Below are positions 39,517-57,698 of a stretch of DNA of 64,000 nucleotides, one piece after another. This DNA comes from a virus. Within the stretch, counting starts at the first letter, position 1. Each line of letters starts with the position of its first letter. The DNA is taken from IMG/VR virus record IMGVR_UViG_3300028829_002760, positions 32,001-96,000 of that record, one strand, 5' to 3'. The translations under genes and the position numbers were made by a program. The notes under the pieces are model-generated. The model did no database searches and was not told the DNA's origin. It saw only the letters and a list, made by a program, of their open reading frames with translations.

Positions 39517-39662
39517 CAGTCCCAATTAAACTGTATACTTATTATTGTAAAGAATAATTCAAAAGTATGATAATTTTCTTCATCGTCAGGTTCTAAGTAA
39601 CTCCAACCTAATAAACATCTTGAATGAGGCCATGTAATATGTATACGTATGTCATATCCCAT
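39516..39662 (-). CDS. 48-aa microprotein (not in ORF track)
   Basis: TAATG coupling to the giant gene; MGYDIRIHITWPH...QFNWD*. Confidence 0.5.
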   Translation of the reverse strand: MGYDIRIHITWPHSRCLLGWSYLEPDDEENYHTFELFFTIISIQFNWD

Positions 39663-42600: not shown

Positions 42601-45600
42601 TTTCAAGTCTATCATTACCCATATCAGAACTGTTTGGTTCTCCAGCTTGATCTTTATAAGTAAAAACTAAGTCTCCAATTATTTTATAAGCACCTGCTAC
42701 ATCAAACTGATTTCTACCAGTTTCTTGTATTCTTTCTTGTATTTCTCTAAGCTCAGTGAGAAGATCATTTTTCATTTCCCAATACTCAGGATCAATATCC
42801 ATTCTTAGGTTTTGTCTTTCCCACATTTTCATTTCACGTTTATACTCTTTATCACCTGGAAGTATGTCTTTAGTAGCTAATAGATCTACAAATTCATTGT
42901 ATGCACTTTGTAGCATTCCTTCCATAGGTCTCCGCTCATAAAATTCTTTTGTAGCTTCTCTGTGTTCTTGAAGTACATTTGCAATACTTAAATCATATAT
43001 ACCTTTAGCTTCATCATCTACTTTAGGTGTGCCATCTTCATATGTTAATGCAAATAATTGTTGGTACTCTCTAAATGCTGCTTTTATAGTTGAGTATTCT
43101 TGAAACCTTTCTAACTCATTTTCCATTGAGTTTACAAGGTTGTTATATGCAGCTAGTTTTTGTTTTCTTACATAGTATGCTAATTTACCTGCTTTAGATT
43201 GTTTAAATATATCATCTTTTTCATAAAACTCTGGAACAAAATCTTGCCACATATAATCTTTTTTAAATGTGTCAAATTCAAATTGTGCATCAGCAATTTT
43301 ATTTACATCTTCACTCTTTTTAGCTTCTTCTAAATTATATTCTAATAGATCGTAATGATATCTATAATCTTTAAAAGCCCCGTGATAAGACCATATTTTT
43401 TTTTCAATAGGTTTACCTTCTTTATCTACCCAAAATACTGTATCTAAAAACCCTAACTTTTCCCTCATAGCAGGAGAATTTAATTTGGAAAATCCTACAG
43501 CAGGTAGTAGTTTTTCAAGTTTTTTTCTAAATTTTAGAGACTTTTCCCAAACAATATTTTCTACCTGTGACTTTTCATTCTCTATAAACATAGATAATGG
43601 GCCCACAACTACATCATTAGAAGAACTATAACTTTCTAACCATCTATTAAACCAAGTTATATCATGTGCTCCTCCAGTAAGTGCTTCAGTTATTTTATCT
43701 TTATCTATAACAATATCTTTGTATTCTTGTAAAAAACCTTTTAGTATATCTTTAGGAACTCCTTTTTCAATTAATGCGTCTATATCAGAATCTTCAATTG
43801 TATTTGTAGTTACTTTATAATAAAGATCATTTACAGCATTTTCTAATTCAACAGGGTTTAATGCTCTTTTTAAAGCTGTACCAAGATTTTCTCTAAGTCT
43901 TTTTTCAACATACTCAGACATGTATCCTGTAATCTCTACATAAAACTGTACGTTGTTAGTTTTTAATAAGTTTGCAATATTAGTATTTACCCTAGTTATA
44001 TTTTGTACAATTTCATTTAGATTGTTATAAAATGGATTTGATGAATCTATTATCTTTCCATCTATACTCAATGCTTCATTTATCTCTTCAACCATCTTTA
44101 ACCAGGCTTTAGAGTTCTGCTTGTACAACATTAATAAAGCTATAGTACTTCTATTATTAATGTTAGACTTATTTATCTTATTAATGTTGGACAGCATATT
44201 TTTTAACATGCTGTTTGTAGTGTCTAAAGTATTTACTAATGCAGTTGCTCGTTGAAGATCTGCATCTAAAGATTCTTTTACGGCATCCAGTGCATTTTGA
44301 ATTTTTTCATTTTCATCAAACTCCTCTACATCCGTGTTAAGGTAATCTTTTAATGTGCTAGTTACTTCTCTTAAGTATCTAGTAGTTCCTTTTTGAAATA
44401 ATGTTTCTTTTAACATTGTTCTAGAAACCTTATCTCCTTTAAAATTTTCAGCCTCAGTTAAAACTCGTTTAGTGGTCTCATAAATCTGATCTATCATTTT
44501 TTGCATAGATTCTTTATCAGAGAACTTATCTAATTCTTTAGCTCTAGCAAGTACATCTCTACCGAACATCACAAGATCTTCCTCTTTTAAGTTATTGGGA
44601 ATATCTATATCTATTTCTTTTTCAAGGAGCATTTCAGATAAATCCTCTATTGAAGTATCCACATCTAGTTTAGAAATTTTTACTTTACTACCAAAAACTT
44701 TTCTAAGTATTTGCTTGATTGCGTTCAGTAATCTATTAATAAAACTATCAAATCCCTCTGTGTTGATTTGATCGTTCATCTTATTGATTGCTTTTAATTG
44801 TAGTGCGTATGCTAATACTTCCTCCTTAAATAGATCAGTATTTTGATCTAGTTCAGGGTATTGAGATTCTACATAAAATTTTATACCTTGACCCTCCTCA
44901 GTTGAGATAGCTTCTTTATAAAGTTTTTGGAATAAGATATTGTTCTTCATTCTTAATCCTTGAAGCAGCGGGTGTGAAAACTCATGTAATACTGTTCTAG
45001 GAGTTATGTTTTCTCCTACTAGATATACAGTACCTGCGTAATAGAAACCAGGTTCACCGTTATATTTGACCTGTCTGTTTTGTAATATCTTTGAGGCTTC
45101 TTCCTTAGTTATATTTTCGTATCTTACATCTAAACCTACCGATAACCTTTGTGCAAGCATTTCAGCTAGTTGTTTTGATCTTTGATTTTGCAATTGTTCT
45201 ACATTTAGTGATACAAAATCTACCCCATAAATAGCAGTATCTGTAACTTCTTTTGTAGTTTCTTTAGATTTAACTTTTTGATTAGCCGATATATCACCTT
45301 TTTTAATTTTAGCTAAAGTTTCATTAGCTTCTTTTAAAGCTTCTTCTTTAGATAGTCCAAGGTCATTTTGAAAACTCATTGTAGCCTGAATAACATCTTC
45401 TAATTGTTCTAATGCATTAGAATAATTATTTATATTAAATAACCTTCTTATAAAGTCTAATAGTTCTTCAAATAAATTAGAAAACTCTTTTTTATTCATT
45501 GGAGGAACTTGTCTTAATAGCTCCTGAAACTCTGGATTTGTTAATGCTTCTGCAAATAATTCATCTGTATTTGTAAACCCATAAGGCATTGAAAACTGAT

Positions 45601-47323
45601 ATGCACCCATTAAAGATTTATCTTGCAATATTATTACTTGATCTTTTAAGTACTTTAAAAACTTATCATAAGGATTTCTATCTGCTCCCTGCAATTTTTC
45701 CCTTCTTGTTTTATTAGGTAGTGCATCAAATTCTTTTTTCTTAAGTGTATCAACTCTATAGGATTCTGCTGCAATTGCAATTGTACTTAGTGAATGAACA
45801 ATTTCATGCATTACTAATCTTTCTGGATCTACTCTAAATCTTTCACTATTATGATGTAGGTTTATATATTGTCCTGTAATATAACTAGCTTCAACATCAG
45901 CTATAAATGTATATTTATCATTTAATCTTTTAACTTTAGCATTATAATATGCTGCAGTACCTTTCTTTTCTTCTGAAAATAAATGTAATACGTTTATAGG
46001 AATATTATTTTTTTCAGCAAATGGAATTAATTTTTTAGCTAAATCTTTATATTCACTATCAGGGTTATTAGCTATGTTTTGTAATATAGTTACAGTATCT
46101 GAAGTAGCAGGAATATGTAGGGATGAGTCATAATCTGGAAATATTTTTTTAATCTTTTCTTTAGCCTCAATAGGAAGTACATCTTTTTTGCTAAACTCTA
46201 TTTCTTGATTCATCCATGTTGAAGCCTGAAACAACTTCCTCATTAAAATAGCCTTCTCTATATTAGGATTTTGTTGTAACTCTCTATTTTTAAATTCTAA
46301 AATTCTTGTTACCTGATTGTCAATTCTATCATTGACTAATTGTTTCCAGTTAGGTATAATTTTTATAAAATTAGATAAGGTTTCAAGTTTTTTAGTTTTA
46401 GATTTTATAGCATTGCTATAAGTAAAAACTTTATTTTTTGTAAATTTAATATTAGATTTTATTTTTTTTACAGCATTTCTACCTAAAAAAGCAATTGCTT
46501 GAGCATCACTTTTGAATTTATTTTCTTCATATAAAGATTTAAAATATTTTTTAATTGTAGCTTGATTCTTTTTTGAATAACTAGATATCTTACTTTTGTC
46601 TTTATATTTAATAAAACCATTTATAACATTTAATTCTAATTCAAGTTCTTCAACTGCTTTTTTAGTATTATCTATTGCTTCTTTTAGATAATAATCATTT
46701 GATTTTATATCTTTTAATGCTTCTTTTATAGCATTTGGAATTTCAGTAGATTTATTAAAAGCTTCTAGTCTTTCAGTAAGAGAAGACTTTCTATCTAATT
46801 GTTGAAGTTTTGTTTGTCTTAAAACTTCTCGACCAAATATATTTTCAAGTAAATTTTCTACTATAGTAGACATAACATAAGCGTCATCGTTATACCAAAT
46901 ATCTCTTTTAATACCTTTTCTATTTCTCATGTAATAAGGTCTTTCTTTTAAAGAAAGCTTATTCATTATCATATTTGATACATCTTCTACTTCATCAAAA
47001 GACATTATAGATCTAACATCTTCTTCAGACATAAACTTAATTCCAGGTGCAATTTTTTGAGATACATTTATAGAATTAAACTGAACTGAATTAAAATTAT
47101 CCTGAAAAATTTCAAAAAGAGCTTCATTGGGAACTGCTTCTGATAATCTTAAATTAAATAGTTTTTCACCAAGTGGTCTTAAACCATACTTTATCTCTGC
47201 TAAAGATGTCATCTTATCATTTAGATCATCAAATAGCTTTTCATCGACTACTTTATTAACTTCATCAATAGCTCCTTGCTTTTGTAGATAGTTTACTGAA
47301 TTTATTTGTACTTCACAGGCCAT
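39662..47323 (-). CDS. Giant virion/ejection protein (2553 aa) with two zincin motifs, LysM domain and C-terminal hydrophobic helices
   Basis: HEIVH (45794-45808), HEFSH (44972-44986), LysM-like at 40520-40651; position next to vRNAP as in crAss-like phages. Confidence 0.75.
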   Translation of the reverse strand: MACEVQINSVNYLQKQGAIDEVNKVVDEKLFDDLNDKMTSLAEIKYGLRPLGEKLFNLRLSEAVPNEALFEIFQDNFNSVQFNSINVSQKIAPGIKFMSEEDVRSIMSFDEVEDVSNMIMNKLSLKERPYYMRNRKGIKRDIWYNDDAYVMSTIVENLLENIFGREVLRQTKLQQLDRKSSLTERLEAFNKSTEIPNAIKEALKDIKSNDYYLKEAIDNTKKAVEELELELNVINGFIKYKDKSKISSYSKKNQATIKKYFKSLYEENKFKSDAQAIAFLGRNAVKKIKSNIKFTKNKVFTYSNAIKSKTKKLETLSNFIKIIPNWKQLVNDRIDNQVTRILEFKNRELQQNPNIEKAILMRKLFQASTWMNQEIEFSKKDVLPIEAKEKIKKIFPDYDSSLHIPATSDTVTILQNIANNPDSEYKDLAKKLIPFAEKNNIPINVLHLFSEEKKGTAAYYNAKVKRLNDKYTFIADVEASYITGQYINLHHNSERFRVDPERLVMHEIVHSLSTIAIAAESYRVDTLKKKEFDALPNKTRREKLQGADRNPYDKFLKYLKDQVIILQDKSLMGAYQFSMPYGFTNTDELFAEALTNPEFQELLRQVPPMNKKEFSNLFEELLDFIRRLFNINNYSNALEQLEDVIQATMSFQNDLGLSKEEALKEANETLAKIKKGDISANQKVKSKETTKEVTDTAIYGVDFVSLNVEQLQNQRSKQLAEMLAQRLSVGLDVRYENITKEEASKILQNRQVKYNGEPGFYYAGTVYLVGENITPRTVLHEFSHPLLQGLRMKNNILFQKLYKEAISTEEGQGIKFYVESQYPELDQNTDLFKEEVLAYALQLKAINKMNDQINTEGFDSFINRLLNAIKQILRKVFGSKVKISKLDVDTSIEDLSEMLLEKEIDIDIPNNLKEEDLVMFGRDVLARAKELDKFSDKESMQKMIDQIYETTKRVLTEAENFKGDKVSRTMLKETLFQKGTTRYLREVTSTLKDYLNTDVEEFDENEKIQNALDAVKESLDADLQRATALVNTLDTTNSMLKNMLSNINKINKSNINNRSTIALLMLYKQNSKAWLKMVEEINEALSIDGKIIDSSNPFYNNLNEIVQNITRVNTNIANLLKTNNVQFYVEITGYMSEYVEKRLRENLGTALKRALNPVELENAVNDLYYKVTTNTIEDSDIDALIEKGVPKDILKGFLQEYKDIVIDKDKITEALTGGAHDITWFNRWLESYSSSNDVVVGPLSMFIENEKSQVENIVWEKSLKFRKKLEKLLPAVGFSKLNSPAMREKLGFLDTVFWVDKEGKPIEKKIWSYHGAFKDYRYHYDLLEYNLEEAKKSEDVNKIADAQFEFDTFKKDYMWQDFVPEFYEKDDIFKQSKAGKLAYYVRKQKLAAYNNLVNSMENELERFQEYSTIKAAFREYQQLFALTYEDGTPKVDDEAKGIYDLSIANVLQEHREATKEFYERRPMEGMLQSAYNEFVDLLATKDILPGDKEYKREMKMWERQNLRMDIDPEYWEMKNDLLTELREIQERIQETGRNQFDVAGAYKIIGDLVFTYKDQAGEPNSSDMGNDRLERVRDLEQEISDYRANIDSRTGLTRDDADEFNRLSQKATDGALESGSPEAERYFYLLDKVEETGISGQDVTRMNQIIAELGSMTEKLPTIYYMEALNYNLSRLDIEEVSEDEVEDVVNGDEFQELLEEDQKLREWFEINHYTIQKYNRETKAYESYFKRTSANNVSSPTDEKYIKFTEIIDKNTGEPILLKGAPGIRHSRNEVKDEYRTIPFGAKKADYVGKYIDNKNQWLPRLYQPGQKYSAKDGRFINEKYFQMKSANNAEYKLIDAITEYHLANQEGVSNYSKLYLDMPRYALKRGDIWQAMQKGTYGKRFGELGRNVKEWVRQSFVKTKVDAELDFNYDAKNNLVNTNLDGNQITYVPVSGIYNIDQEITDADTFSGLFRYALSVQTQSKLLESLPLVNSILDTLEDPANAPKELEKFDKGIFNLKGQLQKAKKKFSTNNRLGQVKSLIEREYFGRLVEGIEETHPVFGKMMGTLQGLSAMGSLAVNIPSDLKNKYGAYVQVLIEGLGAEFITLKDFALARPWAEKSMLEWTTKGIYQTGPGAISTQLIQFFDPVFKSKDQFGKEIERSLIKDLANGEWMYMHRKFGEMQVSVSLFGAFMFGQKIDQLLTDGTKKTMRYIDAWEKDAEGIIRLKSGIHPGWSNLPVFHEYQRGETLEEIAKKYYIPVEELKAKNRIKTAVQLEDGQEIIIAKSEKFLGLKNRIQGTSRKLFGTYDAIGQAEGNKLLLYKMFFFMRKWFTPMFMNRFGFDSKTATWTRGGERYDWATTSYGKGFYVTAFQALVKTIKSAGRNAAYLSTEEKVSLRKMAGEGMAVIGLSLLALMLFGFDPEDDDKWDKIKKRSGAYGQDTFNTYGFLSNHMLLLILGAQAESSAFVPLPSIKGLNLGMDDYTKMITQTTSAWYNTIVLYADIMGDVLDFVTFSEMDRYKRDVGTMSWKEKGDLKIWAKFRKVFGRTGSSEDPEYTIKNMIKSQTRLGQ

Positions 47324-47324
47324 G

Positions 47325-50300
47325 TTATGAACATTTAAATGGATCTTCTTCTAGCTCCAATTGTAATAATATTTCTTCATCGGTGATACCTTGTACGATA
47401 CCAACCATTTTATTTATTTCTTCAAACTTAGTTGAACCAGGGTTTACGAACTGAAAGTCTTCAAACAACCTCTTACTTAAATATACGAATAATTCTTGAG
47501 GCATTGTATTTCTATCTCCTAAACCATACTCAGGAAATGCTATTTTACCATTTTTTTCTTGAATCTTTTTTACAGTGGCAATTCTATTTTCCCAAATCTT
47601 TTTTAGATTATCATATTCACTAGGAGGTAATTCTACTTTACGTCCATCTTTAATATGACTGTATAGATCAGTTGGGAAGTTTATAGACATGTCTCCTACC
47701 TCTGTCATAAAGTATGATGATCCACCTAACACAATTCCATTATCTTTTTGTTCTGGTCTAATCTCAAAAACACTTGTATTATGTAAAAATACTACGTCTG
47801 GATTATTTTTAGATATATTAGAGTAATAGAAGGTATTAGTTGCATTATTATCATTGTAAGTATAAACATCAGTTTCTTCTGTATTTCTCAAACCTAATCT
47901 TCTTTTAACAACTTCAGTATCCATATTAGTAGTGTCTATAACAGTTTTAGCACCTCTATCTAGTAAAGCATTTTGTGCAAGTTTCAATCCTTCTAGAAAA
48001 GCTTTATCAATAACATAATTTGTGTTATGAGTAAATTTTTCATATTGTAATAATTTTGTAGCAGCTTCAGAATTACGATTTTGTAAAAATGATTCTACTA
48101 CAAGATCTTTCATAAGTTGTAAATTATCAAAACTTTTTTTAACCTTTTTACCTCTTATTTTAGTACCGTATCCACCAGCATCAATATATTTATCATATGT
48201 TGATTGATCAAACTCACCTGATTTATTAGATTGATATGCATGCTCTACACTTCCATATTCTCTACCTTCCCAAGTAAATGTTCTTGGTGCAAGATTAGAT
48301 AATATTTTTGTAGAAGTTTTAGATTCAGCTTGACCCCAATATACATTAATAGTTCCTGTTGGTTTAACACCAGTTTCTAATTCAGTTGTTTCAGTTGTTT
48401 CAGTTGATTTAACAGTATCAAGTTCCATATCTGATATATAATCCTTAAATCTGTTTTTATTTTGATTTGTTCTAGCATTAATATCAAGGAACATATCATA
48501 GAAATTACTTAATATACCCTGACCATTTTTTTCTAATGCTGAAATAAAGTCTTTAGATTCATTTTCAAGTATTGATAAAAAGTTATTATAGTCTACTACA
48601 TTTGTAAAGTTTAACTTTGTTTTATTTAAACCTGTTTGTAAAAAAGAATATAAGTTTAAGTAATCAAACATCTTACTTATTCTTAAATTTTCAATTGGAT
48701 CCTCAACTTTAGAATATCCAGGGTTAGCTAATTTTTTTAGATCATCAGTATATAAGTTAGACTTATCACTATCAAAATCTTTATCTGCTAAATATATATT
48801 GTAAACACCATCTTCCTTACCACCATCTAATTTGAATTTCTTAACTACGTTATATGTTCTACCTAGTTCAGGATTATCTTGTAACATAATCATAAATCTA
48901 ATAGCAAATGCATTTTCACTCTCAAATAAATGGAACATATTAAATGAATTATCTAATGCTTCAATAGCTAATAGTTTTTCATAAGCATATCTTACAGCTT
49001 TTTCTTGAGTTAATTCAGGCATTATTTCTTTAGTAAGATTTAACTCATCTTTAAAAGTTTTAGTTTTAGCATAATCTTTAGTAAGAGGGTTTAGATACCT
49101 TAAATATTCACGTTGAGCTACAAATTTTAAGTATTCATCGAAATTTGTTTGAGAATTAGTTCTAAAAGTTGAAGGGTGTAATGGATATAATCCACGATCT
49201 TCATATGAATTTTTCACATCAGAATCTTCTTCCCACGCACTTTTCTTAAATTCTTTTTCAAGTTGTTTCATGTCCATATACAGAACACCATCTTTTATAA
49301 AAGCACCTCTATTAAGCTTTTTAACTAATTTAGTAGGTATTTTAGTTTGAAGATCTAAAGACATAAAACCGTCTTTACTATTATATTTTCTTATAGCATT
49401 TTGTAGTATAAAGCTTACTATATCATTTCTAAATACATTACTAAACATTTCCACATTTTGACCTGGGAATGTATTTTCTAGATCCATTCTAATACTATCT
49501 TTTTTAGATATTAAGAACCTACTGATCTCAGGATGATATCTTAATTCAAATAGTGGTCTACTTACTGCTAATGCTAGTGGTCCATTAAAGAATGATCTTA
49601 ATATTGAGTCATTCCTCATAGCATTTACAACTTCCAAAGGCACTCTTGAATCATAGAATAATTCATCTAAATTAGCTTCAGTTTGCTCTACATCAGATAA
49701 AGTAGTCTTAGTACTTGTATCTGGATTAGATGCCATTTTAAGTTTAGTATATCCACCAATCTGTTGTTCAAGTTCTAAATAATGTAAAAACATTGATTTA
49801 ACTAAATCACTCTCTGTATCATTTTCCTTAATAGCTTTAAGCATTTGAGATTCAGTAAAATGATTTTTTCTTTTTTTACTAAAGAATTTATCAAGTAATT
49901 GTTGACCTTTATTATATCTAGCATCATTTTTACTTCTAGGTGACAACTCATCAAAATCAAAATATTTACGTATTACTTCAGATGCAGCTTTATATTTTGC
50001 TAATCCAGATGCACCAACATCTTTTCCTAATGCTTCAGCAAATGTAGATTTAAATAAACGTTGCTCAGTTACATAATCTCTAACTAGTGGATTAGATACA
50101 AAGTATATTGCTTCTTTAACAGGTACACCAGCTTTAATCATATATAACAATGTTGGAGCTACTTCATAGTTACCTTGTATAAAGAATACCCATGCATCTT
50201 TCTCAACATCAACCCAACCGTTCATCATTTGAGATATAACATCAGCAACTTTATTTACACCATCAACATCATACATATCTGATATAGATATTACTTCATC

Positions 50301-53300
50301 ACCATTTTTACTGGTCATTTTATTATGTCTCAGTCTCATGTTACTTTCCCTTAATACTTCTTTAATTTTATAAGTATTAGGCATGTATGCTCCAATGGCA
50401 TTCATAATAACATTAAATGTATTTTCTATAGCACCAAGACCAAGTGTCTTTTTACCTACAATATTTGACTCATGTTTATATACATTATATAATGCTTCTA
50501 AAACTCTGGTAGGACTCATCTCACCAGTATCTTTAGTCATTTTATTTTTCTTAGGATTGTATTTAGAAACATATTGAGCAAGTTGATCAGCAATACCCTT
50601 TAATATAAAAGTACCGTTAGGCATAATAAGTGATGCGTAGTTATCTGGTAATTCTAAAATTTCTTTAATATCATTTATAAGTTCATTTTCTAATGCTGCT
50701 TTTTGATTTTTCACAGCTCCTAGAAAATTATCTGTACCTCTTAAATCTTTTATAGATTGTAAATCACTATAAGATCTTTTTATAACTGAACCATCTTCAT
50801 CTAAAGTGTTCATAAAAATTGTCAACTTATCAATATCAAAGTCACCCCCTGATTTAGCAACTATTTCTGCTGGAGGTACTATAATATTTCCTGCTTGTGG
50901 AGGTAAGAATTCAAATACTTCAGCAAATTCCATAGAGTTAAGACCCTGAACTGGTATTCTAACACCTACTAATGTTATTGCTTTTCTGTTAGCTCCATTA
51001 TTAGCATCTAACCAAGAATCATCTTTAATTTTTTCATTTAATCTTTCTAAAGATTTGTCCATATTAAGTTCATTATCTTCATTATAAACACCTATACTTT
51101 CATCATTCTCATATTCTAAATTAAATAGATTATAATAAGTACCTTGCATAGCTATCATAACTTTAGCTGCTGCAGTATATCCATCTGATTTTTTATGATA
51201 AGTTGGTAACAAGTAAGATGCTGAAGCCCACTTAGCTATTTCATCTTTAGTTGCTTTTCTTAAATCAGGTTTAGCAAACTGATTTTGGAACATTCCAACT
51301 GAAACTTGTACTAATGGTTCCCCATTTACTTTTTGTTTAATTACTCTCTTATTAATCATAGAGAGAATTAACTTTTCTATTTTACCAGACTCTGGATGGA
51401 AAGATAAATCATGTTGTATTTTACCTGAGTTATCAAATACATCTATAAATTCAATTAAATCATCACTAAGAACATCTTCTCTTTCAAGATTTGTTCTAAT
51501 TATATTTAAAAGCTTAGCTGTACTTGATTTATCTTTTGCTTTATATTGACCTGGGCTTGTTTCTTCATAACCCATTTCTTCTAAAAGCTCAAGCTTTAAT
51601 AGTTCTGTATATTCTTCTACATGATCTATATAACGTTTAACTCTTTCATTTGTAATCTCTTCATACTTAGTAGATTTAATTACACCTCTTTCATAAAGTC
51701 CTTCTAGAATTAATTTACGTAACTGTGTAGAGAATATAGTTTTAAATTTATACTCTGAATTAACTTCTGTCTGATTCTTTAAAAATTCTGCATATATTGT
51801 ATTTACTGTAAACTCAGAGTCTTTATTAAAACTACCATCTTCATTAAGTACTACATCACCTGTTCCTATATGAGATACTTTAGAACCTGATTCCATTAAT
51901 ACATAATCCATTTGATCTTTCATCATTTTTTGATGTAAATCATATAATGGTGTACCAGCTTTTGCTACTCCAGGTATTAATGGTGCAAGTGAAAACTTAT
52001 GAAATGAATTAACAGGTAGTCCTGTAGCCTCTATATTTCCAAAGTATTGCAGCTTATATGATGGGAAAAATTCTACTATATCTTCAGCTGTAATATTTTC
52101 TCCCATAGCAACTCTTCTATATAATTGCTCTTGTTCTGTACTCCAATTACTTTCAAGTTCTTTTAATTGTCTATATGTTTCAAATGAAATCCATCCTTGA
52201 CCATCAGCAATATCCATTTTACCATACTCTTCTATAGCTTTATCTGCTATATTTTTAGCAACAGTTTTACTACCAGTTCTTTCATATACAGAATCATAAA
52301 TAGACTTTCTATATTCGTCAAACATTTCAGACTTTATAGTAATTTCCTTTAAGATTGCTGTTCTAAAAGTTCCGTCATAATTTCTTGACTCATAACCTAA
52401 TCTATCTGCATAATATTTCTTTAAAGAACTTACATATATTTGCGCTCTTTGATCAGCTCTAAATCCTTTTCCACCTGATGCAAGACCTGCATTTCTTTTA
52501 TGAAATTCTTCTTTAGCATGATTATACTGTACTAGATCACCATATGCTAAAGCTACAGTTTCCATTTTATGAATAAAAGAGTTATATGTATATGCTGACA
52601 TTAATGAAGTTTCTATATCCTTTTGAGTTAAACCTGGGTTAATAAGTTCAAATCTTTGATATAATCCTTCGTCTATATATTTAGCTTCTTGTAATCTTTC
52701 ATAATTTTCTTTAGTGTCCTTACTAAAATATTCATAAACATTACTTCTAATTTTTTCTCTTAAATCAAATTGGTCATCTAATTCATCCATTAGATTAAAA
52801 TTATTATTAACATCTTTAGAAGCTTTATCTAATATTTTATATAACTCATCTTGAACGTCTTCCTTTAAAACATCATCAAATGCTGTAAATGCTTGACCTG
52901 CCATTACAGTGGTTTTATTCTCATCTTTTCTTTTAACTTTTCTATTATACCCAGCATAGTTTTTAAACTTATCTTTCTGTTGCTGAAATCTTACTATTCT
53001 ATTAGCTTCTGCAGCAATATATCCTTCAATAATATCATATGCTTTTATTTCACCATCAGAATATCCTACAAAAGATTCTATGTCTACATAAAGTTTATTG
53101 TCTTTTTTACCGTTATATGTTTGGATAGTACCATCTACTGTCATTCCTAATGCAGTATTTTTGGAAGCATGTCTCATAAACTCCTCAACTCCATTCAATA
53201 ACATTGTATGGATTTCTTGTAAAAATTTACTTGTTGCATCCATAGAAGCTGTACTATCACCAGTATAATTTCCTTTAACTTTAGTCTGTGTACCTGCTAC

Positions 53301-56300
53301 ATGTTGTAATGTAATTTTAGTATCAGATAGTTTTTCTCCATATGTACTTGACATTGGATTTAAGTCAAAGATAGAACCAAGTAATTTTGAAAATACACTA
53401 AATGTATTATTAGCTTCATTTAACCACCTCATATGTTTAAACTTACCGTTTAAATCTGCTTCATCAGTAGTTAACTCTTGCCAGTTCTTAGCAGTATTAA
53501 TTGCATTAACAATTCTTGTTACTGAGCTATCTACCATATGTTCCCAAACTCTTGTTCCTTCAGGAGTTTGAACACTAAAATTAGAATAGGAATCAGAAAA
53601 CATACTTTGTATTTCTGCTAGTGTTCTAAGTCTACTAGATACATCTTGACTTTGAGATTCATCTTCTCTTAATGATTCTGGTAAACCAGTCATAAGCATT
53701 GATATAGGATCTTTTTTAAAGTCAAGAGCTGCGGGCTCATCACTTTTATTTACAATCTTAACAACCTCATACATTCTATCTACACCAAACCTGGTACTAA
53801 ATGGGTTTTCAGTGCTTTCTATTATTTCTTCTATGGCTATGGAAGATTCATCTAGTACAATACCAATAGCTTTAAGAAAGTCATTTGCTTTCCTGTAATT
53901 AAATACACCATTTTTTCCAAAGTCTTTTACAACTTTAGCTGTATTTAATATATTAGTTTCAATACCATTTACACGAACCGTTTCTATGTATGGATTTGAA
54001 ATAGGATCAGAAGTAATAAAATTAGATTTCCAATCTCTAGTAACTTGATATGTATCAAAATTAGCTCTACCTAACTTAGCTTTATATTCATTGTCTTCAT
54101 CTTTTTCTAAGTTAAGTTGTATATAAGGTATTCTTGGCTTTTTAAAGTCCTGCCAAAAAGCAGTTTCTAATTTAAACTCTTCTCTTGATGAATATTCTGG
54201 TCCATTTAAAACTCTAAATGGGTTTGGTAATACATCTAGTAATTGTTGAAGCTCTGGATAGTTATCCATATTATCAAATATTCTAATGTACATATCCATT
54301 TCATCATATGAACCTTCTAATATTTTTGCAAGCCTGTTCCAAGTTATATCTACATCTTGAAGTTCAGGTAATCCAAATAAACCTCTTTTTCTTACAGATT
54401 GATCATTTTCTATTTCTGTTTTAAATAAACTAGCTAACAACATCATAGTTTCTTCCTTAGCTAATTTTTTAGCTGAAACACTATTATCATCTTTTAATTT
54501 AAATAAACTACTTTCACTAATATTAGTAGGATCTTCTACTTCAGTATATTGATCTCTTAATACCTTAAATCTAGATTTTTCTAAATGATATGCTATAACA
54601 TTCTCTTTTTCACCGCCTTCAAATACATCATTAGGACCTATATAATTATCTGTAATCTTATCTAATAATTCTAATTCTTCAAGAAATTTAGGATCAGAAA
54701 TTACTTCTATATCCTCCTCAACTTTTTTGATATATGACAATCGAAGTCTTTCAAATTTGTCATAGATATCTCTATAGAGTTCTTTTTTATTATCCTCATC
54801 TTTAAGTAAATCAAATGCTCCTGTTGTAGTATTAAAATCTTGGTTATACTGTTCAAATATAAGAGATGCCATGCTATCCATAGCATCAACTACTTGTTTT
54901 GACTCTTGTATAGAAAAGTTTTCATTAATAGTTTTGGCTCTATTTAATTCACCAAACATTACATTATCCATAGAGGGTGTAAGGTTTGATAATAGTTCAG
55001 GATTCTCAGATGCTCTATATAGTTTATCGTAAAGTTCTTTTACAGATTCTACATTCATTAGATCTGTAGTAACCTCATTCTTAGTTGTCTTACCAAATAA
55101 TCTTTGTAAAAATTTATAAATCTTATCAAAAATTCTAGCTAGGAAACCTTTTACTTTACCTTTACCTTTTGATTTAGCATATGTTCTAAATTGTTCAGCA
55201 AGATCTTCTTCTATTTGAAAGAAGCTTTTGTTTTTGTATTTATCTAAAGATTTTATTTCTTGATATAAATTTACTTTCTCATCTTTAGTTAAAAATAATT
55301 GTGAAAAACCATGCCATGCCTCATGATAAACATCTACTGAAGTACCACCATCTCCTTCAAATAATGTAATACCATAACCAGACCATCTAGCAAATGCATT
55401 AGAGTTTGTTATTTCAGTAATTCTTTCTAGGCTAATATATTTACTTAATGGAGAACTTGCCCACCACTTTTCTGCTGCTTTTCTATCTGCTTTAGATGTG
55501 AATATTTTATCAAGATACATGTCTTTAGCTCTGTCTAATCCTTTTTTCTTGTAACGTGTCTCACTAGACTTACTGTCTTTCAAAACATCATCAAGTAAAT
55601 GATTTCTAGTAGCTGGATTATCTTTTATATCTTGTTCTTTTGCTTGAGATTCAGTTTCATCTTCACTAAGCCTTCTTTTAAAACCTATTTTCTTTTTCTT
55701 TTTAGACTTAGGAGCTACCTTATCTTTATCTGTTTTAGGTTTCCTTTTACGTTTAACTGTAAATCTTTTACCAGTATTTTTCTTTTTAGGTGTAGTCTTT
55801 TTTTCTCTTAGTACCCTTGCTCTACCTACTTCTATATCAGTAACATCTTCTAATAGTCCTTCTGGTATAGTATAATTTAAATATGCATTTAGACCTTTTT
55901 CATAATCTAAAAGATCTTCAGTATATTCTAGTTTAATGTATTTTTTAATTGCATCAAAATGTTTTACAGTTTGTGTTTTAATTACATCACCCTCAAAAAT
56001 ATAATCAGTAAAAGTTTTACCTTTTAATGAATTTTTATAATGTACATTAGCAGGGAAGTATCCATTTTCTCCTTCTTTCTTTTGACCCGCTTTTAATTTT
56101 TTAGGTATTGCATTTAATAAATGATTCTTAATCATTTGTTTACCTTCTTCAGTAAACAAAACATCATTTGAAATTGGTTTACCGTTTATATATACTTTAT
56201 AATCTTTTCTTTTAAGTTTTTCTAAAACCTTAACTTGGATTCTATCTCTATTTATGTTAGAATTTTCTACTCTAGCATTATTGATAAAGATTTCAAAATA

Positions 56301-57698
56301 ATCTTTTCTTTCTTCAGGTGTTAACTCTCTACCTTTTAATTTAGCTGTAGTAGTAAGAACTTCTGCAATTTTATCTGCTAATTGCTCATCCATATCTCCT
56401 CTTTGAAGTTGGAGTTTAAATGGTTCAGTATTTTCAGTTCCAGGTATTTTTCTTTGTACAATAATATATTGACTACCTTGTCTTTTACCTACTGTTTCTG
56501 CAGTATAGTTTTTTAATTCTTCTTCAGTTACATTAGCTTCTTGTAAAGTTACAGCAACCTTTTTACGATTAGATTGTCCTAATGTTCCAGATACAATAGG
56601 TAATATAATAGTCATGTCGTCATTTTCCTCAATCGTTGTTCTTAAAGCATAAAGAGTATTTAACTCTATCTTTTGACGTTCAGCTATTACATCTTCTAAT
56701 TTTTGTAATTGTTTCTCAGTTACTTTACCACCATTATTTTCTATAAGTTCTGCTTGTTGTTGAGCTAATACTTTTGGCTCTACCATATTGTATTTTCTAT
56801 AAGCAGTGTTTGATAATAAAAGTTTACCTTTTTCCTTAACAACTCTTCTAAGATATTGATATACAATTCTTCCCTCTTCTGGATTATCAGTTAAAGTGCC
56901 ATCTTCTCTAAAATAAAGAAAGTTACCTTCTTTATCAGTTATAACAGCAGTAATACCTCGACTTTTAGTCTCTTTGTTAAGATATGCTTCATCCGATGTA
57001 GTTAATAGTTTAGGATCAATATTTCTTGTTTGCATAGCAGTTAATGCTATTTCAACATCCTCATACATAATAGGTTCAGTAATATCACTTCTGTTCCTAG
57101 CTATAAGACCTATTGCCTTTACTACGTCTGAAAATAATTTTTTTTCTGGATCAATTCTATCTTTATCTTCTTCTGAAACAGTTTCTGGATTAGCAGCTAT
57201 AGCAATTTGATATGTGGTTGTCCATGCACTTGTTACTTTTGCACCATTAAATTGATTAAATGACCAAAATAATAATTCGTCAATTGGAGGATTTGGATCT
57301 ATAGATGTATCTTTTCTTGTCTTATTAGCATCTTTTATTTCAGCATCTATTTCATCTTTAGATTTTTTTTTGGTTGCTAATGCTTTACCAACTTCAGTAA
57401 GATCTTTAAAATTTTTCCTTTGTTTATTAAGGGCTGTAAAATCAAAATCTTTATCAACCAGATAATCATTTACTTCTTCATCAAGATTTACTAAGTTAAA
57501 GATGTCTGGAATAGCTTGAGCATAGTACAAAGCTTTTACCTCATCCTCTGAAGCTTCTTTAACTGCAGCATAGATATCTTTTATAGTTTGATCTAAATCA
57601 AACTTAGGCAGTCTGTTATCATTAATTCTATCTATTATTTCTCCATATAGAATTTTATATACATCTCCTACTTGCTTTTCATTTAAACTACAGGCCAT
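47325..57698 (-). CDS. Single-chain virion RNA polymerase (crAss/phi14:2 gp66-type, 3457 aa) with added domains
   Basis: GGDFDIDKL (DFDID at 50829-50843), VRIPVQ, ADGQ; HEAWH zincin at 55311-55325; NADAR-like region at ~47960-48360. Confidence 0.88.
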   Translation of the reverse strand: MACSLNEKQVGDVYKILYGEIIDRINDNRLPKFDLDQTIKDIYAAVKEASEDEVKALYYAQAIPDIFNLVNLDEEVNDYLVDKDFDFTALNKQRKNFKDLTEVGKALATKKKSKDEIDAEIKDANKTRKDTSIDPNPPIDELLFWSFNQFNGAKVTSAWTTTYQIAIAANPETVSEEDKDRIDPEKKLFSDVVKAIGLIARNRSDITEPIMYEDVEIALTAMQTRNIDPKLLTTSDEAYLNKETKSRGITAVITDKEGNFLYFREDGTLTDNPEEGRIVYQYLRRVVKEKGKLLLSNTAYRKYNMVEPKVLAQQQAELIENNGGKVTEKQLQKLEDVIAERQKIELNTLYALRTTIEENDDMTIILPIVSGTLGQSNRKKVAVTLQEANVTEEELKNYTAETVGKRQGSQYIIVQRKIPGTENTEPFKLQLQRGDMDEQLADKIAEVLTTTAKLKGRELTPEERKDYFEIFINNARVENSNINRDRIQVKVLEKLKRKDYKVYINGKPISNDVLFTEEGKQMIKNHLLNAIPKKLKAGQKKEGENGYFPANVHYKNSLKGKTFTDYIFEGDVIKTQTVKHFDAIKKYIKLEYTEDLLDYEKGLNAYLNYTIPEGLLEDVTDIEVGRARVLREKKTTPKKKNTGKRFTVKRKRKPKTDKDKVAPKSKKKKKIGFKRRLSEDETESQAKEQDIKDNPATRNHLLDDVLKDSKSSETRYKKKGLDRAKDMYLDKIFTSKADRKAAEKWWASSPLSKYISLERITEITNSNAFARWSGYGITLFEGDGGTSVDVYHEAWHGFSQLFLTKDEKVNLYQEIKSLDKYKNKSFFQIEEDLAEQFRTYAKSKGKGKVKGFLARIFDKIYKFLQRLFGKTTKNEVTTDLMNVESVKELYDKLYRASENPELLSNLTPSMDNVMFGELNRAKTINENFSIQESKQVVDAMDSMASLIFEQYNQDFNTTTGAFDLLKDEDNKKELYRDIYDKFERLRLSYIKKVEEDIEVISDPKFLEELELLDKITDNYIGPNDVFEGGEKENVIAYHLEKSRFKVLRDQYTEVEDPTNISESSLFKLKDDNSVSAKKLAKEETMMLLASLFKTEIENDQSVRKRGLFGLPELQDVDITWNRLAKILEGSYDEMDMYIRIFDNMDNYPELQQLLDVLPNPFRVLNGPEYSSREEFKLETAFWQDFKKPRIPYIQLNLEKDEDNEYKAKLGRANFDTYQVTRDWKSNFITSDPISNPYIETVRVNGIETNILNTAKVVKDFGKNGVFNYRKANDFLKAIGIVLDESSIAIEEIIESTENPFSTRFGVDRMYEVVKIVNKSDEPAALDFKKDPISMLMTGLPESLREDESQSQDVSSRLRTLAEIQSMFSDSYSNFSVQTPEGTRVWEHMVDSSVTRIVNAINTAKNWQELTTDEADLNGKFKHMRWLNEANNTFSVFSKLLGSIFDLNPMSSTYGEKLSDTKITLQHVAGTQTKVKGNYTGDSTASMDATSKFLQEIHTMLLNGVEEFMRHASKNTALGMTVDGTIQTYNGKKDNKLYVDIESFVGYSDGEIKAYDIIEGYIAAEANRIVRFQQQKDKFKNYAGYNRKVKRKDENKTTVMAGQAFTAFDDVLKEDVQDELYKILDKASKDVNNNFNLMDELDDQFDLREKIRSNVYEYFSKDTKENYERLQEAKYIDEGLYQRFELINPGLTQKDIETSLMSAYTYNSFIHKMETVALAYGDLVQYNHAKEEFHKRNAGLASGGKGFRADQRAQIYVSSLKKYYADRLGYESRNYDGTFRTAILKEITIKSEMFDEYRKSIYDSVYERTGSKTVAKNIADKAIEEYGKMDIADGQGWISFETYRQLKELESNWSTEQEQLYRRVAMGENITAEDIVEFFPSYKLQYFGNIEATGLPVNSFHKFSLAPLIPGVAKAGTPLYDLHQKMMKDQMDYVLMESGSKVSHIGTGDVVLNEDGSFNKDSEFTVNTIYAEFLKNQTEVNSEYKFKTIFSTQLRKLILEGLYERGVIKSTKYEEITNERVKRYIDHVEEYTELLKLELLEEMGYEETSPGQYKAKDKSSTAKLLNIIRTNLEREDVLSDDLIEFIDVFDNSGKIQHDLSFHPESGKIEKLILSMINKRVIKQKVNGEPLVQVSVGMFQNQFAKPDLRKATKDEIAKWASASYLLPTYHKKSDGYTAAAKVMIAMQGTYYNLFNLEYENDESIGVYNEDNELNMDKSLERLNEKIKDDSWLDANNGANRKAITLVGVRIPVQGLNSMEFAEVFEFLPPQAGNIIVPPAEIVAKSGGDFDIDKLTIFMNTLDEDGSVIKRSYSDLQSIKDLRGTDNFLGAVKNQKAALENELINDIKEILELPDNYASLIMPNGTFILKGIADQLAQYVSKYNPKKNKMTKDTGEMSPTRVLEALYNVYKHESNIVGKKTLGLGAIENTFNVIMNAIGAYMPNTYKIKEVLRESNMRLRHNKMTSKNGDEVISISDMYDVDGVNKVADVISQMMNGWVDVEKDAWVFFIQGNYEVAPTLLYMIKAGVPVKEAIYFVSNPLVRDYVTEQRLFKSTFAEALGKDVGASGLAKYKAASEVIRKYFDFDELSPRSKNDARYNKGQQLLDKFFSKKRKNHFTESQMLKAIKENDTESDLVKSMFLHYLELEQQIGGYTKLKMASNPDTSTKTTLSDVEQTEANLDELFYDSRVPLEVVNAMRNDSILRSFFNGPLALAVSRPLFELRYHPEISRFLISKKDSIRMDLENTFPGQNVEMFSNVFRNDIVSFILQNAIRKYNSKDGFMSLDLQTKIPTKLVKKLNRGAFIKDGVLYMDMKQLEKEFKKSAWEEDSDVKNSYEDRGLYPLHPSTFRTNSQTNFDEYLKFVAQREYLRYLNPLTKDYAKTKTFKDELNLTKEIMPELTQEKAVRYAYEKLLAIEALDNSFNMFHLFESENAFAIRFMIMLQDNPELGRTYNVVKKFKLDGGKEDGVYNIYLADKDFDSDKSNLYTDDLKKLANPGYSKVEDPIENLRISKMFDYLNLYSFLQTGLNKTKLNFTNVVDYNNFLSILENESKDFISALEKNGQGILSNFYDMFLDINARTNQNKNRFKDYISDMELDTVKSTETTETTELETGVKPTGTINVYWGQAESKTSTKILSNLAPRTFTWEGREYGSVEHAYQSNKSGEFDQSTYDKYIDAGGYGTKIRGKKVKKSFDNLQLMKDLVVESFLQNRNSEAATKLLQYEKFTHNTNYVIDKAFLEGLKLAQNALLDRGAKTVIDTTNMDTEVVKRRLGLRNTEETDVYTYNDNNATNTFYYSNISKNNPDVVFLHNTSVFEIRPEQKDNGIVLGGSSYFMTEVGDMSINFPTDLYSHIKDGRKVELPPSEYDNLKKIWENRIATVKKIQEKNGKIAFPEYGLGDRNTMPQELFVYLSKRLFEDFQFVNPGSTKFEEINKMVGIVQGITDEEILLQLELEEDPFKCS

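What the first reader, a model, noticed from the sequence alone, without database searches (positions are those of the whole stretch)
47325..48360. NADAR-like domain plus a further C-terminal domain fused to the virion RNA polymerase
Seen: after a T/E-rich linker the vRNAP contains ILSNLAPRTFTWEGREYGSVEHAYQSNK, matching the NADAR/YbiA N-terminal signature (SNF...F..dG..y.svEH.yQ..K). A second small alpha/beta domain follows (DVVFLHN...GG...KIAFPEYGLG). Established: NADAR proteins remove guanine ADP-ribosylation made by DarT1, an anti-phage toxin, and crAss vRNAPs are injected with the DNA. Inference: a co-injected eraser or sensor that protects the incoming template. Caveat: the usual C-terminal D..WG..N.LG motif is not evident, so the domain may only bind or be inactive.
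Basis: partly seen in the sequence, partly recalled or inferred. Interest (0 to 1): 0.72.

Follow-up and report, generated by a model that had tools for sequence, protein, structure and literature searches.

The report
NADAR enzyme cassette on crAss-like polymerase
A crAss-like phage has a small ADP-ribose-removing (NADAR) enzyme domain, of the type phage T4 uses against the DarTG1 defence, spliced between the body and the tail domain of its giant RNA polymerase, which related phages package in the virion and inject. It is probably a ready-made antidote delivered with the DNA, but that is untested.

Summary
ORF 47325..57698 (-) encodes a 3457-aa protein with the DFDID catalytic motif and distant tblastn similarity (22-28% identity) to the RNA polymerases of crAss-like phages.

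**NADAR domain (D1).** Residues 3114-3251 (window 47946-48359) have a NADAR fold:
- AF2 pLDDT 85.
- VIA Z 10.7, 10.0 and 7.1 to YbiA, PnNADAR and GlNADAR; the next hit scores 3.0.

The 'missing' C-terminal motif is not a defect. This is the phage gp30.3/AdfN-type branch, with Glu3152, Lys3159 and His3224 at the three catalytic positions. They are conserved in 92, 91 and 91 of 92 homologue representatives.

**It is a mobile cassette.**
- The closest polymerase (63% identical over 3100 aa) lacks it.
- Another relative carries an AAA_33 kinase in the same slot.
- Copies 60-78% identical sit in giant proteins whose bodies are only 20-30% identical.

**Second domain (D2).** Residues 3268-3457 are not an add-on. 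This is the clade's constant terminal domain, related to Pfam DUF7831. Its function is unknown and it ends in a conserved terminal cysteine.

**Function.** A co-delivered eraser of base ADP-ribosylation is the likeliest role; activity and delivery are untested.

This scan has noted NADAR-on-vRNAP fusions before in at least 39 other genomes, so this is a new variant of a known kind.

The parts
47325..57698 (-). Gene for the 3457-aa crAss-type virion RNA polymerase (P0001); stop codon at 47325-47327
   Evidence: Single ORF. tblastn of aa 1800-2500 hits 94 crAss-like phage records at 22-28% identity, some annotated as RNAP catalytic subunit.
50829..50843 (-). DFDID catalytic motif (aa 2286-2290)
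   Evidence: Read directly. DFDxD is the catalytic signature of crAss-like virion RNAPs (bioRxiv 10.1101/2020.03.07.982082; PMC7886860).
48429..48449 (-). FKDYISD, the last conserved motif of the polymerase body (aa 3084-3090) and upstream edge of the variable slot
   Evidence: Alignment with P0006 and P0107; the anchor motif recurs across the clade.
48360..48407 (-). T/E-rich low-complexity linker (aa 3098-3113) leading into the NADAR cassette
   Evidence: Sequence; AF2 pLDDT below 50-80 here.
47946..48359 (-). D1: phage-type NADAR domain (aa 3114-3251), a cassette insertion
   Evidence: HMM envelope 3114-3251. AF2 model has 132 residues at pLDDT 90 or more. VIA Z 10.7 to 2b3w, 10.0 to 8bau, 7.1 to 8bat. 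Absent from the 63%-identical P0006.
48243..48245 (-). Glu3152 (SVEH), equivalent to PnNADAR E43, E. coli C7 NADAR E88 and T4 AdfN E36
   Evidence: HMMER alignment to 8bau, MAFFT alignment with T4 gp30.3, 92/92 conserved. Role taken from PMC11543638 and PMC11825919.
48222..48224 (-). Lys3159 (QSNK), equivalent to PnNADAR K50, C7 K95 and T4 AdfN K43
   Evidence: 91/92 Lys and 1 Arg.
48027..48029 (-). His3224 (FTHNTN), at the end of the last beta-strand; aligns with PnNADAR E125, the position that is His in phage gp30.3-type NADARs
   Evidence: searches (H aligned to the Glu of ..RLYEA; invariant with T4 gp30.3 ..LKHS..), strand 124-126 of the model, 91/92 conserved. See also PMC11125620.
47898..47945 (-). 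Short linker between D1 and D2 (aa 3252-3267)
   Evidence: Low pLDDT in both models.
47328..47897 (-). D2: DUF7831-like alpha/beta domain (aa 3268-3457), the constant C-terminal domain of this polymerase clade
   Evidence: 41/41 homologous segments lie at the extreme C-terminus. Homologue P0034 hits PF25176 at E 1.3e-10. BFVD Foldseek top hits are DUF7831 proteins, prob 1.0. The same domain type ends the cr1_1 polymerase gene.
47331..47333 (-). Cys3456, the penultimate residue and one of only two cysteines in the protein
   Evidence: 100% conserved in 41 D2 segments. 44 of 63 giant homologues have a Cys in their last 10 residues, against 0.37% of internal 10-residue windows.

Best explanation
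**Shown**
- The gene encodes a crAss-type virion RNA polymerase whose C-terminal region is modular.
- Between the last conserved motif of the polymerase body (FKDY) and a constant DUF7831-like terminal domain lies a variable slot.
- In this phage the slot holds a ~140-aa NADAR domain of the phage gp30.3/AdfN type.
- The domain has the complete catalytic set: Glu3152, Lys3159, His3224.
- It is a horizontally exchanged cassette, not an old part of the polymerase.

**Inferred**
- crAss-like polymerases of this kind are packaged in the virion and enter the cell with the DNA to transcribe early genes.
- The NADAR domain would therefore be present from the first moment of infection, without needing to be expressed.
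- Most likely it works as an N-glycohydrolase that strips ADP-ribose from guanine, or another base, on the incoming phage DNA or its first transcripts. That would undo DarT1-like ADP-ribosyltransferase defences that would otherwise block transcription and replication.

The terminal DUF7831-like domain is probably not part of this chemistry. Its fixed position and invariant last cysteine suggest a role in packaging, docking or ejection of the polymerase.
For: - **Fold.** AF2 mean pLDDT 85.5. Foldseek's top three PDB hits are the three NADAR structures. VIA Z is 10.7, 10.0 and 7.1, against 3.0 for the next chain.
- **Sequence.** Profile E 5.7e-6 to YbiA and 5.4e-4 to PnNADAR. 8 of 21 family members hit Pfam NADAR, best E 9.8e-9.
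- **Catalytic residues.** They were mapped by alignment to 8bau and T4 gp30.3 and are conserved 92/92, 91/92 and 91/92. The papers show these positions are needed for guanine de-ADP-ribosylation and DarT1 rescue (PMC11543638), and that T4 AdfN E36/K43 matter for counter-defence (PMC11825919).
- **Cassette.**
  - P0006 is 63% identical over 3116 aa and lacks exactly this segment.
  - P0107 has an AAA_33 kinase in the same slot, and other relatives have unrelated inserts or none.
  - D1 copies at 60-78% identity sit in proteins with 20-30% body identity.
- **Spread.** 177 IMG/VR contigs carry a relative, and about 63 of 79 examined are embedded in long ORFs.
- **Carrier.** DFDID motif and crAss RNAP similarity. 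Virion delivery of this polymerase class is reported in 10.1101/2020.03.07.982082 and PMC7886860.
Against: - There is no biochemical or proteomic data for this phage, and its host is unknown. Whether the host has DarT1-like enzymes cannot be checked.
- The window's own sequence is below Pfam's NADAR cut-off.
- T4 AdfN could not rescue DarT1 toxicity outside infection (PMC11125620; PMC11825919 reports context dependence). NADAR activity therefore does not guarantee anti-DarT1 function.
- Iyer et al. 2022 (PMC9503650) argue that phage NADARs more often act on soluble ADP-ribose derivatives.
- The closest relatives do without the cassette, so it is accessory.
- Active-site geometry in the model could not be inspected, because no coordinates were available to me.
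Confidence: 0.6

Rival explanations
1. The NADAR domain acts on small soluble NAD+/ADP-ribose-derived molecules rather than on modified nucleic acid. Candidate substrates are immune second messengers of TIR/Thoeris-like systems or by-products of RNA repair. On this reading it blunts signalling-based defence on arrival.
For: - Iyer et al. [quoted passage not shown]
- In relatives, the same slot or neighbouring positions hold nucleotide-handling modules: an AAA_33 kinase and a cpYpsA-SLOG-like segment at a weak E of 0.006.
Against: - Every phage NADAR tested so far acts on guanine-ADPr DNA (PMC11125620, PMC11825919).
- No activity on soluble signals has been shown for the family.
- Fusion in cis to a DNA-bound polymerase fits a template-directed role better.
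Confidence: 0.17
2. The domain protects or repairs RNA rather than DNA. It removes ADP-ribose from the polymerase's own early transcripts or from host tRNA/rRNA modified by RNA-targeting ADP-ribosyltransferases. On this reading it belongs to a nucleic-acid repair theme for the slot.
For: - NADARs have been reported to reverse RNA ADP-ribosylation and cytidine ADP-ribosylation. I read only the titles and abstracts of these papers (PMC11833690, PMC12945103).
- The slot of a relative carries an AAA_33 kinase. From my own knowledge, not from a tool result, AAA_33 includes polynucleotide-kinase-type P-loop kinases.
- The carrier is an RNA polymerase.
Against: - No direct evidence supports it here.
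- The closest characterised relatives by catalytic signature (gp30.3/AdfN type) were assayed on DNA.
- Substrate preference cannot be read from sequence.
Confidence: 0.13
3. The domain is catalytically dead or purely structural: a binding module or spacer retained in the giant protein.
For: - It scores below Pfam's NADAR threshold.
- It lacks the D..WG..N.LG motif of YbiA-type members, and near relatives do without it.
Against: - The three catalytic positions are essentially invariant in 92 representatives spanning 41-79% identity.
- The cassette is far better conserved than its carrier proteins.
- The active T4 AdfN also lacks the YbiA-type motif.
Confidence: 0.05

Closest known systems
T4 gp30.3 / AdfN and other phage NADAR anti-DarTG1 factors (PMC11825919; PMC11125620)
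   Same: Both are phage-encoded NADAR folds. They share the Glu and Lys catalytic residues and the His in the last strand that marks phage NADARs. Both lack the YbiA-type D..WG motif, and both presumably de-ADP-ribosylate guanine.
   Different: AdfN is a free-standing ~150-aa early gene product made after infection. Here the domain is fused into a 3457-aa polymerase of the class that is packaged and injected, so it would be pre-made. Identity to T4 gp30.3 is only about 21% and pairwise profile support is weak (hhalign prob 15%). Activity is untested.
DarG1-type NADAR antitoxins of DarT1-NADAR (DarTG1) systems, and YbiA / PnNADAR structures (PMC11543638)
   Same: Same fold (Z 7.1-10.7) and the same Glu/Lys pair at the ADP-ribose site.
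   Different: The third catalytic residue is Asp in DarT1-linked NADARs and Glu in YbiA/PnNADAR, but His here. There is no adjacent DarT gene. The domain is not free-standing.
Polyvalent proteins of phages and conjugative elements (Iyer, Burroughs, Anand, de Souza, Aravind 2017, as summarised in PMC9503650)
   Same: A giant, virion-associated, multi-domain protein with swappable enzymatic modules predicted to act at the very start of infection. NAD+/ADP-ribose-related domains are a recurrent theme.
   Different: Here the scaffold is the crAss-type two-barrel RNA polymerase, and the module sits in one defined slot in front of a constant terminal domain. PMC9503650 does not contain the term crAss. 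The papers I could search do not describe NADAR on this carrier.
Virion RNA polymerase gp66 of Cellulophaga phage phi14:2 (10.1101/2020.03.07.982082)
   Same: DFDxD catalytic motif in a giant virion protein. tblastn of the core hits Cellulophaga and gut crAss-like phage records.
   Different: It is very divergent: phmmer found no PDB match. This protein is about 1300 aa longer than my recollection of gp66 (about 2180 aa; from memory, not from a tool result). It carries the NADAR cassette and the DUF7831-like end.
Pfam DUF7831 (PF25176) proteins of phages and giant viruses
   Same: D2's predicted fold matches them best (BFVD, prob 1.0, E 2.3e-4 to 4e-3). A D1+D2 homologue (P0034) passes the Pfam cut-off.
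   Different: The window's own D2 does not reach the Pfam model. The family has no known function. Here it is always the last domain of a polymerase and ends in an invariant cysteine.

Membership tests
NADAR superfamily, phage gp30.3/AdfN-type branch | NADAR alpha+beta fold | tested here: met
   AF2 pLDDT 85.5. VIA Z 10.7 (rmsd 3.2, 138 aa) to YbiA 2b3w, 10.0 (132 aa) to 8bau, 7.1 to 8bat; next chain 3.0. Foldseek's top 3 are the same entries.
NADAR superfamily, phage gp30.3/AdfN-type branch | Catalytic Glu in the (S/T)xEH motif (PnNADAR E43 / C7 E88 / T4 E36) | tested here: met
   Glu3152, aligned; 92/92 in homologues.
NADAR superfamily, phage gp30.3/AdfN-type branch | Phosphate-binding Lys (PnNADAR K50 / C7 K95 / T4 K43) | tested here: met
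   Lys3159, aligned; 91/92 Lys.
NADAR superfamily, phage gp30.3/AdfN-type branch | [quoted passage not shown] | tested here: met
   His3224 aligns with E125 of PnNADAR and with the His of T4 gp30.3. It lies at the end of strand 124-126 of the model and is 91/92 conserved. The rule comes from PMC11125620 and PMC11543638.
NADAR superfamily, phage gp30.3/AdfN-type branch | Hydrolysis of guanine-linked ADP-ribose on DNA; neutralisation of DarT1/DarTG1 | not testable with these tools
   Needs enzyme assays and toxicity-rescue or plaque assays.
Pfam PF08719 (NADAR) and PF08010 (Phage_30_3) models | Score above the curated gathering threshold | tested here: not met
   15.4-17.6 bits against 35.1 for NADAR, and 14-15.9 bits against 36 for Phage_30_3. 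I therefore file the domain under the superfamily by fold, catalytic residues and transitive profile hits, not under these two HMMs.
Crassvirales virion RNA polymerase | DFDxD catalytic motif in a giant protein homologous to crAss RNAPs | tested here: met
   DFDID at aa 2286-2290. tblastn hits in 94 crAss-like records, E down to 8e-13.
Crassvirales virion RNA polymerase | Packaged in the virion and delivered with the DNA | not testable with these tools
   Shown for phi14:2 (10.1101/2020.03.07.982082; restated in PMC7886860) and inferred here by homology.
Pfam DUF7831 (PF25176), for D2 | Match to the family model or fold | tested here: inconclusive
   The window's own D2 gives no hit. Homologue P0034 scores 41.5 bits against a cut-off of 27, and 4 of 20 relatives hit weakly. 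BFVD's best fold matches are DUF7831 proteins.
Macro domain, for D2 | Macro fold or Pfam Macro match | tested here: inconclusive
   No Pfam Macro match in the genome at E 0.01. Macro structures score only Z 4.1-4.2. The order of motifs (..VVFxxN.., GGxS, IAFPxxGxG) recalls macro domains by eye only.
Cys-based PTP/DUSP phosphatases (rhodanese-phosphatase superfamily), for D2 | Catalytic C-x5-R P-loop after the last strand | tested here: not met
   The best PDB fold resemblances are DUSP/PTP-like but weak (Z 5.5 or less). D2 has no Cys except the penultimate residue, and the loop reads FPEYGLGDRNTMP.

The most novel reading that the evidence does not exclude
The stretch between the polymerase body and the DUF7831-like end is a dedicated 'payload bay' of injected crAss-type polymerases. 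Phages would swap unrelated counter-defence enzymes in and out of it: NADAR here, an AAA_33 kinase, a SLOG-like module and at least three unassigned modules in relatives. The constant DUF7831-like domain with its terminal cysteine would be the docking or ejection handle that gets any payload into the cell. The unassigned inserts would then be a source of new anti-defence activities.
Probability: 0.3. Interest if true: 0.72.

Novelty: new variant of a known kind. Interest (0 to 1): 0.5.

Why it matters
Known phage answers to DarT-type DNA ADP-ribosylation are proteins made after infection begins. DarT-type enzymes modify phage DNA and thereby inhibit its replication and transcription (PMC11543638). 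An eraser carried on the polymerase that enters with the DNA would be present before any phage gene is expressed.

If confirmed, this would show three things:
- crAss-like phages, a dominant and hard-to-culture group, pre-load enzymatic counter-defences on their injected transcription machine.
- These payloads are exchanged as cassettes at a defined slot.
- The other, unassigned inserts at that slot are good places to look for new counter-defence enzymes.

It also gives a simple, testable domain (about 150 aa) for asking what substrates His-type NADARs prefer.

Tried and rejected
**Searches that gave little or nothing**
- blastn of the region against 50,697 phage records: no match.
- tblastn of the last 360 aa: only Bacillus phage AgentSmith, a 237-aa gene annotated 'toprim' that holds a D1-like segment.
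- phmmer of the C-terminus and of the whole protein against the PDB: nothing useful.
- PHROGs and Pfam give nothing for the polymerase body.
- hhalign of the family profile against T4 gp30.3 alone: only 34 columns, prob 15%. The link to gp30.3 rests on shared signature residues and the common fold, not on pairwise significance.

**D2 as a macro domain: considered and not supported**
- The idea came from the motif order seen by eye.
- There is no Pfam Macro hit.
- Macro structures score Z about 4, below DUSP-like hits.

**D2 as a Cys phosphatase: rejected.** There is no CX5R motif.

**Other leads on D2**
- ESM Atlas gave DUF6270/TviD_N at 0.84-0.88, below the level to trust.
- A profile of D2 against the PDB gave nothing.

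**Recent foreign origin by composition: not seen.** D1 GC is 0.287 against 0.289 +/- 0.019 for the body.

**Pfam on the other slot inserts** (P0005, P0084, P0123, P0089): no assignment. My by-eye impression that the P0123 insert looks like an ADP-ribosyltransferase is untested.

**Literature.** No paper linking NADAR with crAss-like polymerases turned up. The library lacks most subscription journals, so this is not proof of absence.
Full report
**What is there**

The window is bases 32001-96000 of a 109,934-bp IMG/VR virus record estimated 92% complete. On the minus strand, three giant ORFs lie head to tail. The middle one, 47325..57698, encodes 3457 aa (P0001).
- ILSNLAPRTFTWEGREYGSVEHAYQSNK at aa 3132-3159.
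- DVVFLHN at aa 3301-3307.
- KIAFPEYGLG at aa 3385-3394.
- The T/E-rich linker at aa 3098-3108.

**The carrier is a crAss-type virion RNA polymerase**

- P0001 has GGDFDIDKL at aa 2286-2290.
- tblastn of aa 1800-2500 finds 94 phage records, all crAss-like or Cellulophaga phages, at 21-28% identity. Some of the matched genes are annotated 'putative RNAP catalytic subunit'.
- Pfam, PHROGs and phmmer against the PDB see nothing in the body, which fits the extreme divergence described for these polymerases (PMC7886860).
- Packaging and delivery with the DNA are shown for phi14:2 (10.1101/2020.03.07.982082). For this phage they are inferred by homology.

**The C-terminal 360 aa are two independent modules**

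An exhaustive HMMER search of 1.84 billion representatives gave 350 hits. They fall into two non-overlapping sets.

D1 (query residues 15-155):
- It recurs at 41-79% identity in many giant proteins of 1500-7400 aa.
- Its position in those proteins varies.
- Most of the carriers have DFDID or DFDVD.

D2 (query residues 160-360):
- It occurs only at the extreme C-terminus, in 41 of 41 segments.
- Its carriers are ~3260-3620-aa polymerases collinear with P0001, and fragments of them.

**D1 is a NADAR domain of the phage type**

*Sequence*
- The window's own sequence is sub-threshold in Pfam: NADAR E 0.005-0.02 and Phage_30_3 E 0.01.
- It matches phrog_1017 at E 1e-8.
- 8 of 21 aligned relatives hit Pfam NADAR, best E 9.8e-9.
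- A profile that includes the more distant stand-alone relatives reaches YbiA at E 5.7e-6 and PnNADAR at E 5.4e-4 in the PDB.

*Structure*
- The AF2 model is confident: pLDDT 85.5, with 132 residues at 90 or above.
- Foldseek's three best PDB hits are the three NADAR entries.
- VIA-align gives Z 10.7, 10.0 and 7.1 for them, against 3.0 for the next chain.

*Catalytic residues*

| Residue here | PnNADAR | E. coli C7 NADAR | T4 AdfN / phage type | Conserved in 92 full-length D1 segments |
|---|---|---|---|---|
| Glu3152 | E43 | E88 | E36 | 92 |
| Lys3159 | K50 | K95 | K43 | 91 |
| His3224 | E125 | D171 | the His of gp30.3-type phage NADARs | 91 |

- The mapping comes from the alignments. The functional roles come from PMC11543638, PMC11125620 and PMC11825919. 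The counts are; each segment stands for one 50%-identity cluster.
- His3224 sits at the end of the last strand of the model.
T4 AdfN, which is active, lacks it as well. More distant stand-alone members of this family still carry D.G.W(G/A).

**D1 is an inserted, exchanged cassette**

- P0006, the closest polymerase, is 63% identical over aa 1-3116 and 55% over D2. It lacks precisely the segment from the T/E linker to ..LDRG.
- All other full-length clade members, at 41-49% body identity, also lack it.
- D1 copies 60-78% identical to this one lie in giant proteins whose bodies are 20-30% identical or cannot be aligned.
- In P0107 the same slot holds a Pfam AAA_33 P-loop kinase, E 2.7e-15.
- In P0005, P0084 and P0123 the slot holds three further inserts. 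They have no Pfam match and no similarity to each other.
- In fragment P0087 a cpYpsA-SLOG-like segment sits in front of D2. The match is weak (E 0.006).
- Most clade members have only 19-52 aa in the slot.
- Base composition of D1 does not differ from the rest of the gene.
- The genome has a single D1 copy.
- In IMG/VR, two peptide patterns alone recovered 177 contigs with a relative. Of 79 loci examined, about 63 embed the domain in a long ORF and 15 are stand-alone genes of 131-193 codons.

**D2 is the clade's constant end, related to DUF7831**

- The AF2 model (pLDDT 78) is a three-layer alpha/beta domain.
- PDB matches are weak. DUSP/PTP-like chains score Z 5.5 or less and macro domains about 4.1, which is within the range the tool calls common.
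- D2 has no CX5R motif, and Pfam Macro finds nothing in the genome.
- In BFVD the best matches are 'DUF7831 domain-containing proteins' of Caulobacter and Rhizobium phages and of giant viruses, plus chunks of gut crAss giant proteins.
- P0034 carries D1 followed by a D2 relative, and it passes the Pfam DUF7831 cut-off at E 1.3e-10.
- In gut phage cr1_1 (Suoliviridae) the same kind of domain ends the 4551-aa gene that holds the polymerase core. Its tail reads ..EMIHCIKS.
- The invariant D2 residues are mostly Gly, Pro or hydrophobic: IAFPxxGxG....MPxELFVYLSxRL...NPGS. There is no obvious catalytic set, and the last cysteine is 100% conserved.
- I therefore read D2 as a conserved terminal domain of unknown function, more likely structural or for docking than enzymatic.

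**Mechanism and rivals**

*Shown*
- A catalytically intact-looking, phage-type NADAR cassette sits in a variable slot of a crAss-type polymerase.

*Inferred*
- It enters the cell with the polymerase and removes base-linked ADP-ribose from the incoming DNA or the first transcripts.
- That would neutralise DarT1-like defences.

*Rivals*
- Action on soluble ADPr-derived molecules, as argued for phage NADARs in PMC9503650.
- Action on ADP-ribosylated RNA (PMC11833690, PMC12945103).
- An inactive module. This one is disfavoured by the conservation of the catalytic residues.

Sequence alone cannot decide between them.

**Novelty**

- Phage NADARs as anti-DarTG1 enzymes are published, as is the idea of injected multi-domain 'polyvalent' proteins.
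- I found no paper placing a NADAR on crAss polymerases. The searchable library is incomplete.
- This scan has already noted the fusion in at least 39 other genomes.
- One earlier follow-up says the fusion is 'already on record'. I could not confirm that from papers.
- What this window adds is the exact slot, the evidence for cassette swapping at that slot, and the identity of the constant terminal domain.

Noticed in passing
window 47331-47333 and 57690-57692 (Cys3456 and Cys3 of P0001); homologues P0006-P0116: P0001 has only two cysteines, residue 3 (MACS..) and the penultimate residue (..PFKCS). Among 63 giant homologues, 44 have a Cys in the last 10 residues, although only 0.37% of internal 10-residue windows contain one. 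The D2-bearing clade nearly always has exactly two, at residue 3 and at the end.
   Followed up: partly
window 55311-55325 (P0001 aa 792-796): A single HExxH motif (HEAWH) follows a very basic Lys-rich stretch (aa ~630-680). One HExxH is found at a comparable position in 6 of 6 clade members checked. This is probably a zincin-like peptidase module in the polymerase's N-terminal third.
   Followed up: no
homologues P0107, P0005, P0084, P0123, P0087 (slot equivalent to window 47898-48428): The slot that holds the NADAR here holds an AAA_33 kinase in P0107 and three unassigned ~150-aa inserts in P0005, P0084 and P0123. A weak cpYpsA-SLOG-like segment sits there in P0087. The P0084 insert reads ..IFVFGSNPLGINGN..GTGGAAL... 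The P0123 insert reads ..VYHGTGEG..SYFSD.., which looks ADP-ribosyltransferase-like by eye only.
   Followed up: partly
homologues P0043 and P0066: In two giant proteins the NADAR domain is split by an insert of about 125-145 aa between its two halves (HMM positions 2-71 and 56/73-137). This may be a nested domain or an intein.
   Followed up: no
homologues P0121-P0149: A second set of D1-bearing giant proteins (2000-3800 aa) has no cysteine at all, no DFD[IV]D motif and no alignable body. The NADAR cassette therefore also rides on another class of giant phage proteins.
   Followed up: no
window 39662-47323 (-), aa 2228-2267 of the 2553-aa protein; window 57700-63924 (-): The downstream giant protein has a LysM domain (E 3.5e-5, above cut-off). 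The upstream one has a weak PD-(D/E)XK nuclease match (E 0.0016, below cut-off).
   Followed up: no
L002:2195-2908 (Bacillus phage vB_BspM_AgentSmith, MW749006.1 46094-46807): This is the only cultured-phage tblastn match to D1 in the phage collection (45.7% identity over 100 aa). It is a 237-aa gene annotated 'putative toprim domain-containing protein', lying next to tRNA genes.
   Followed up: no
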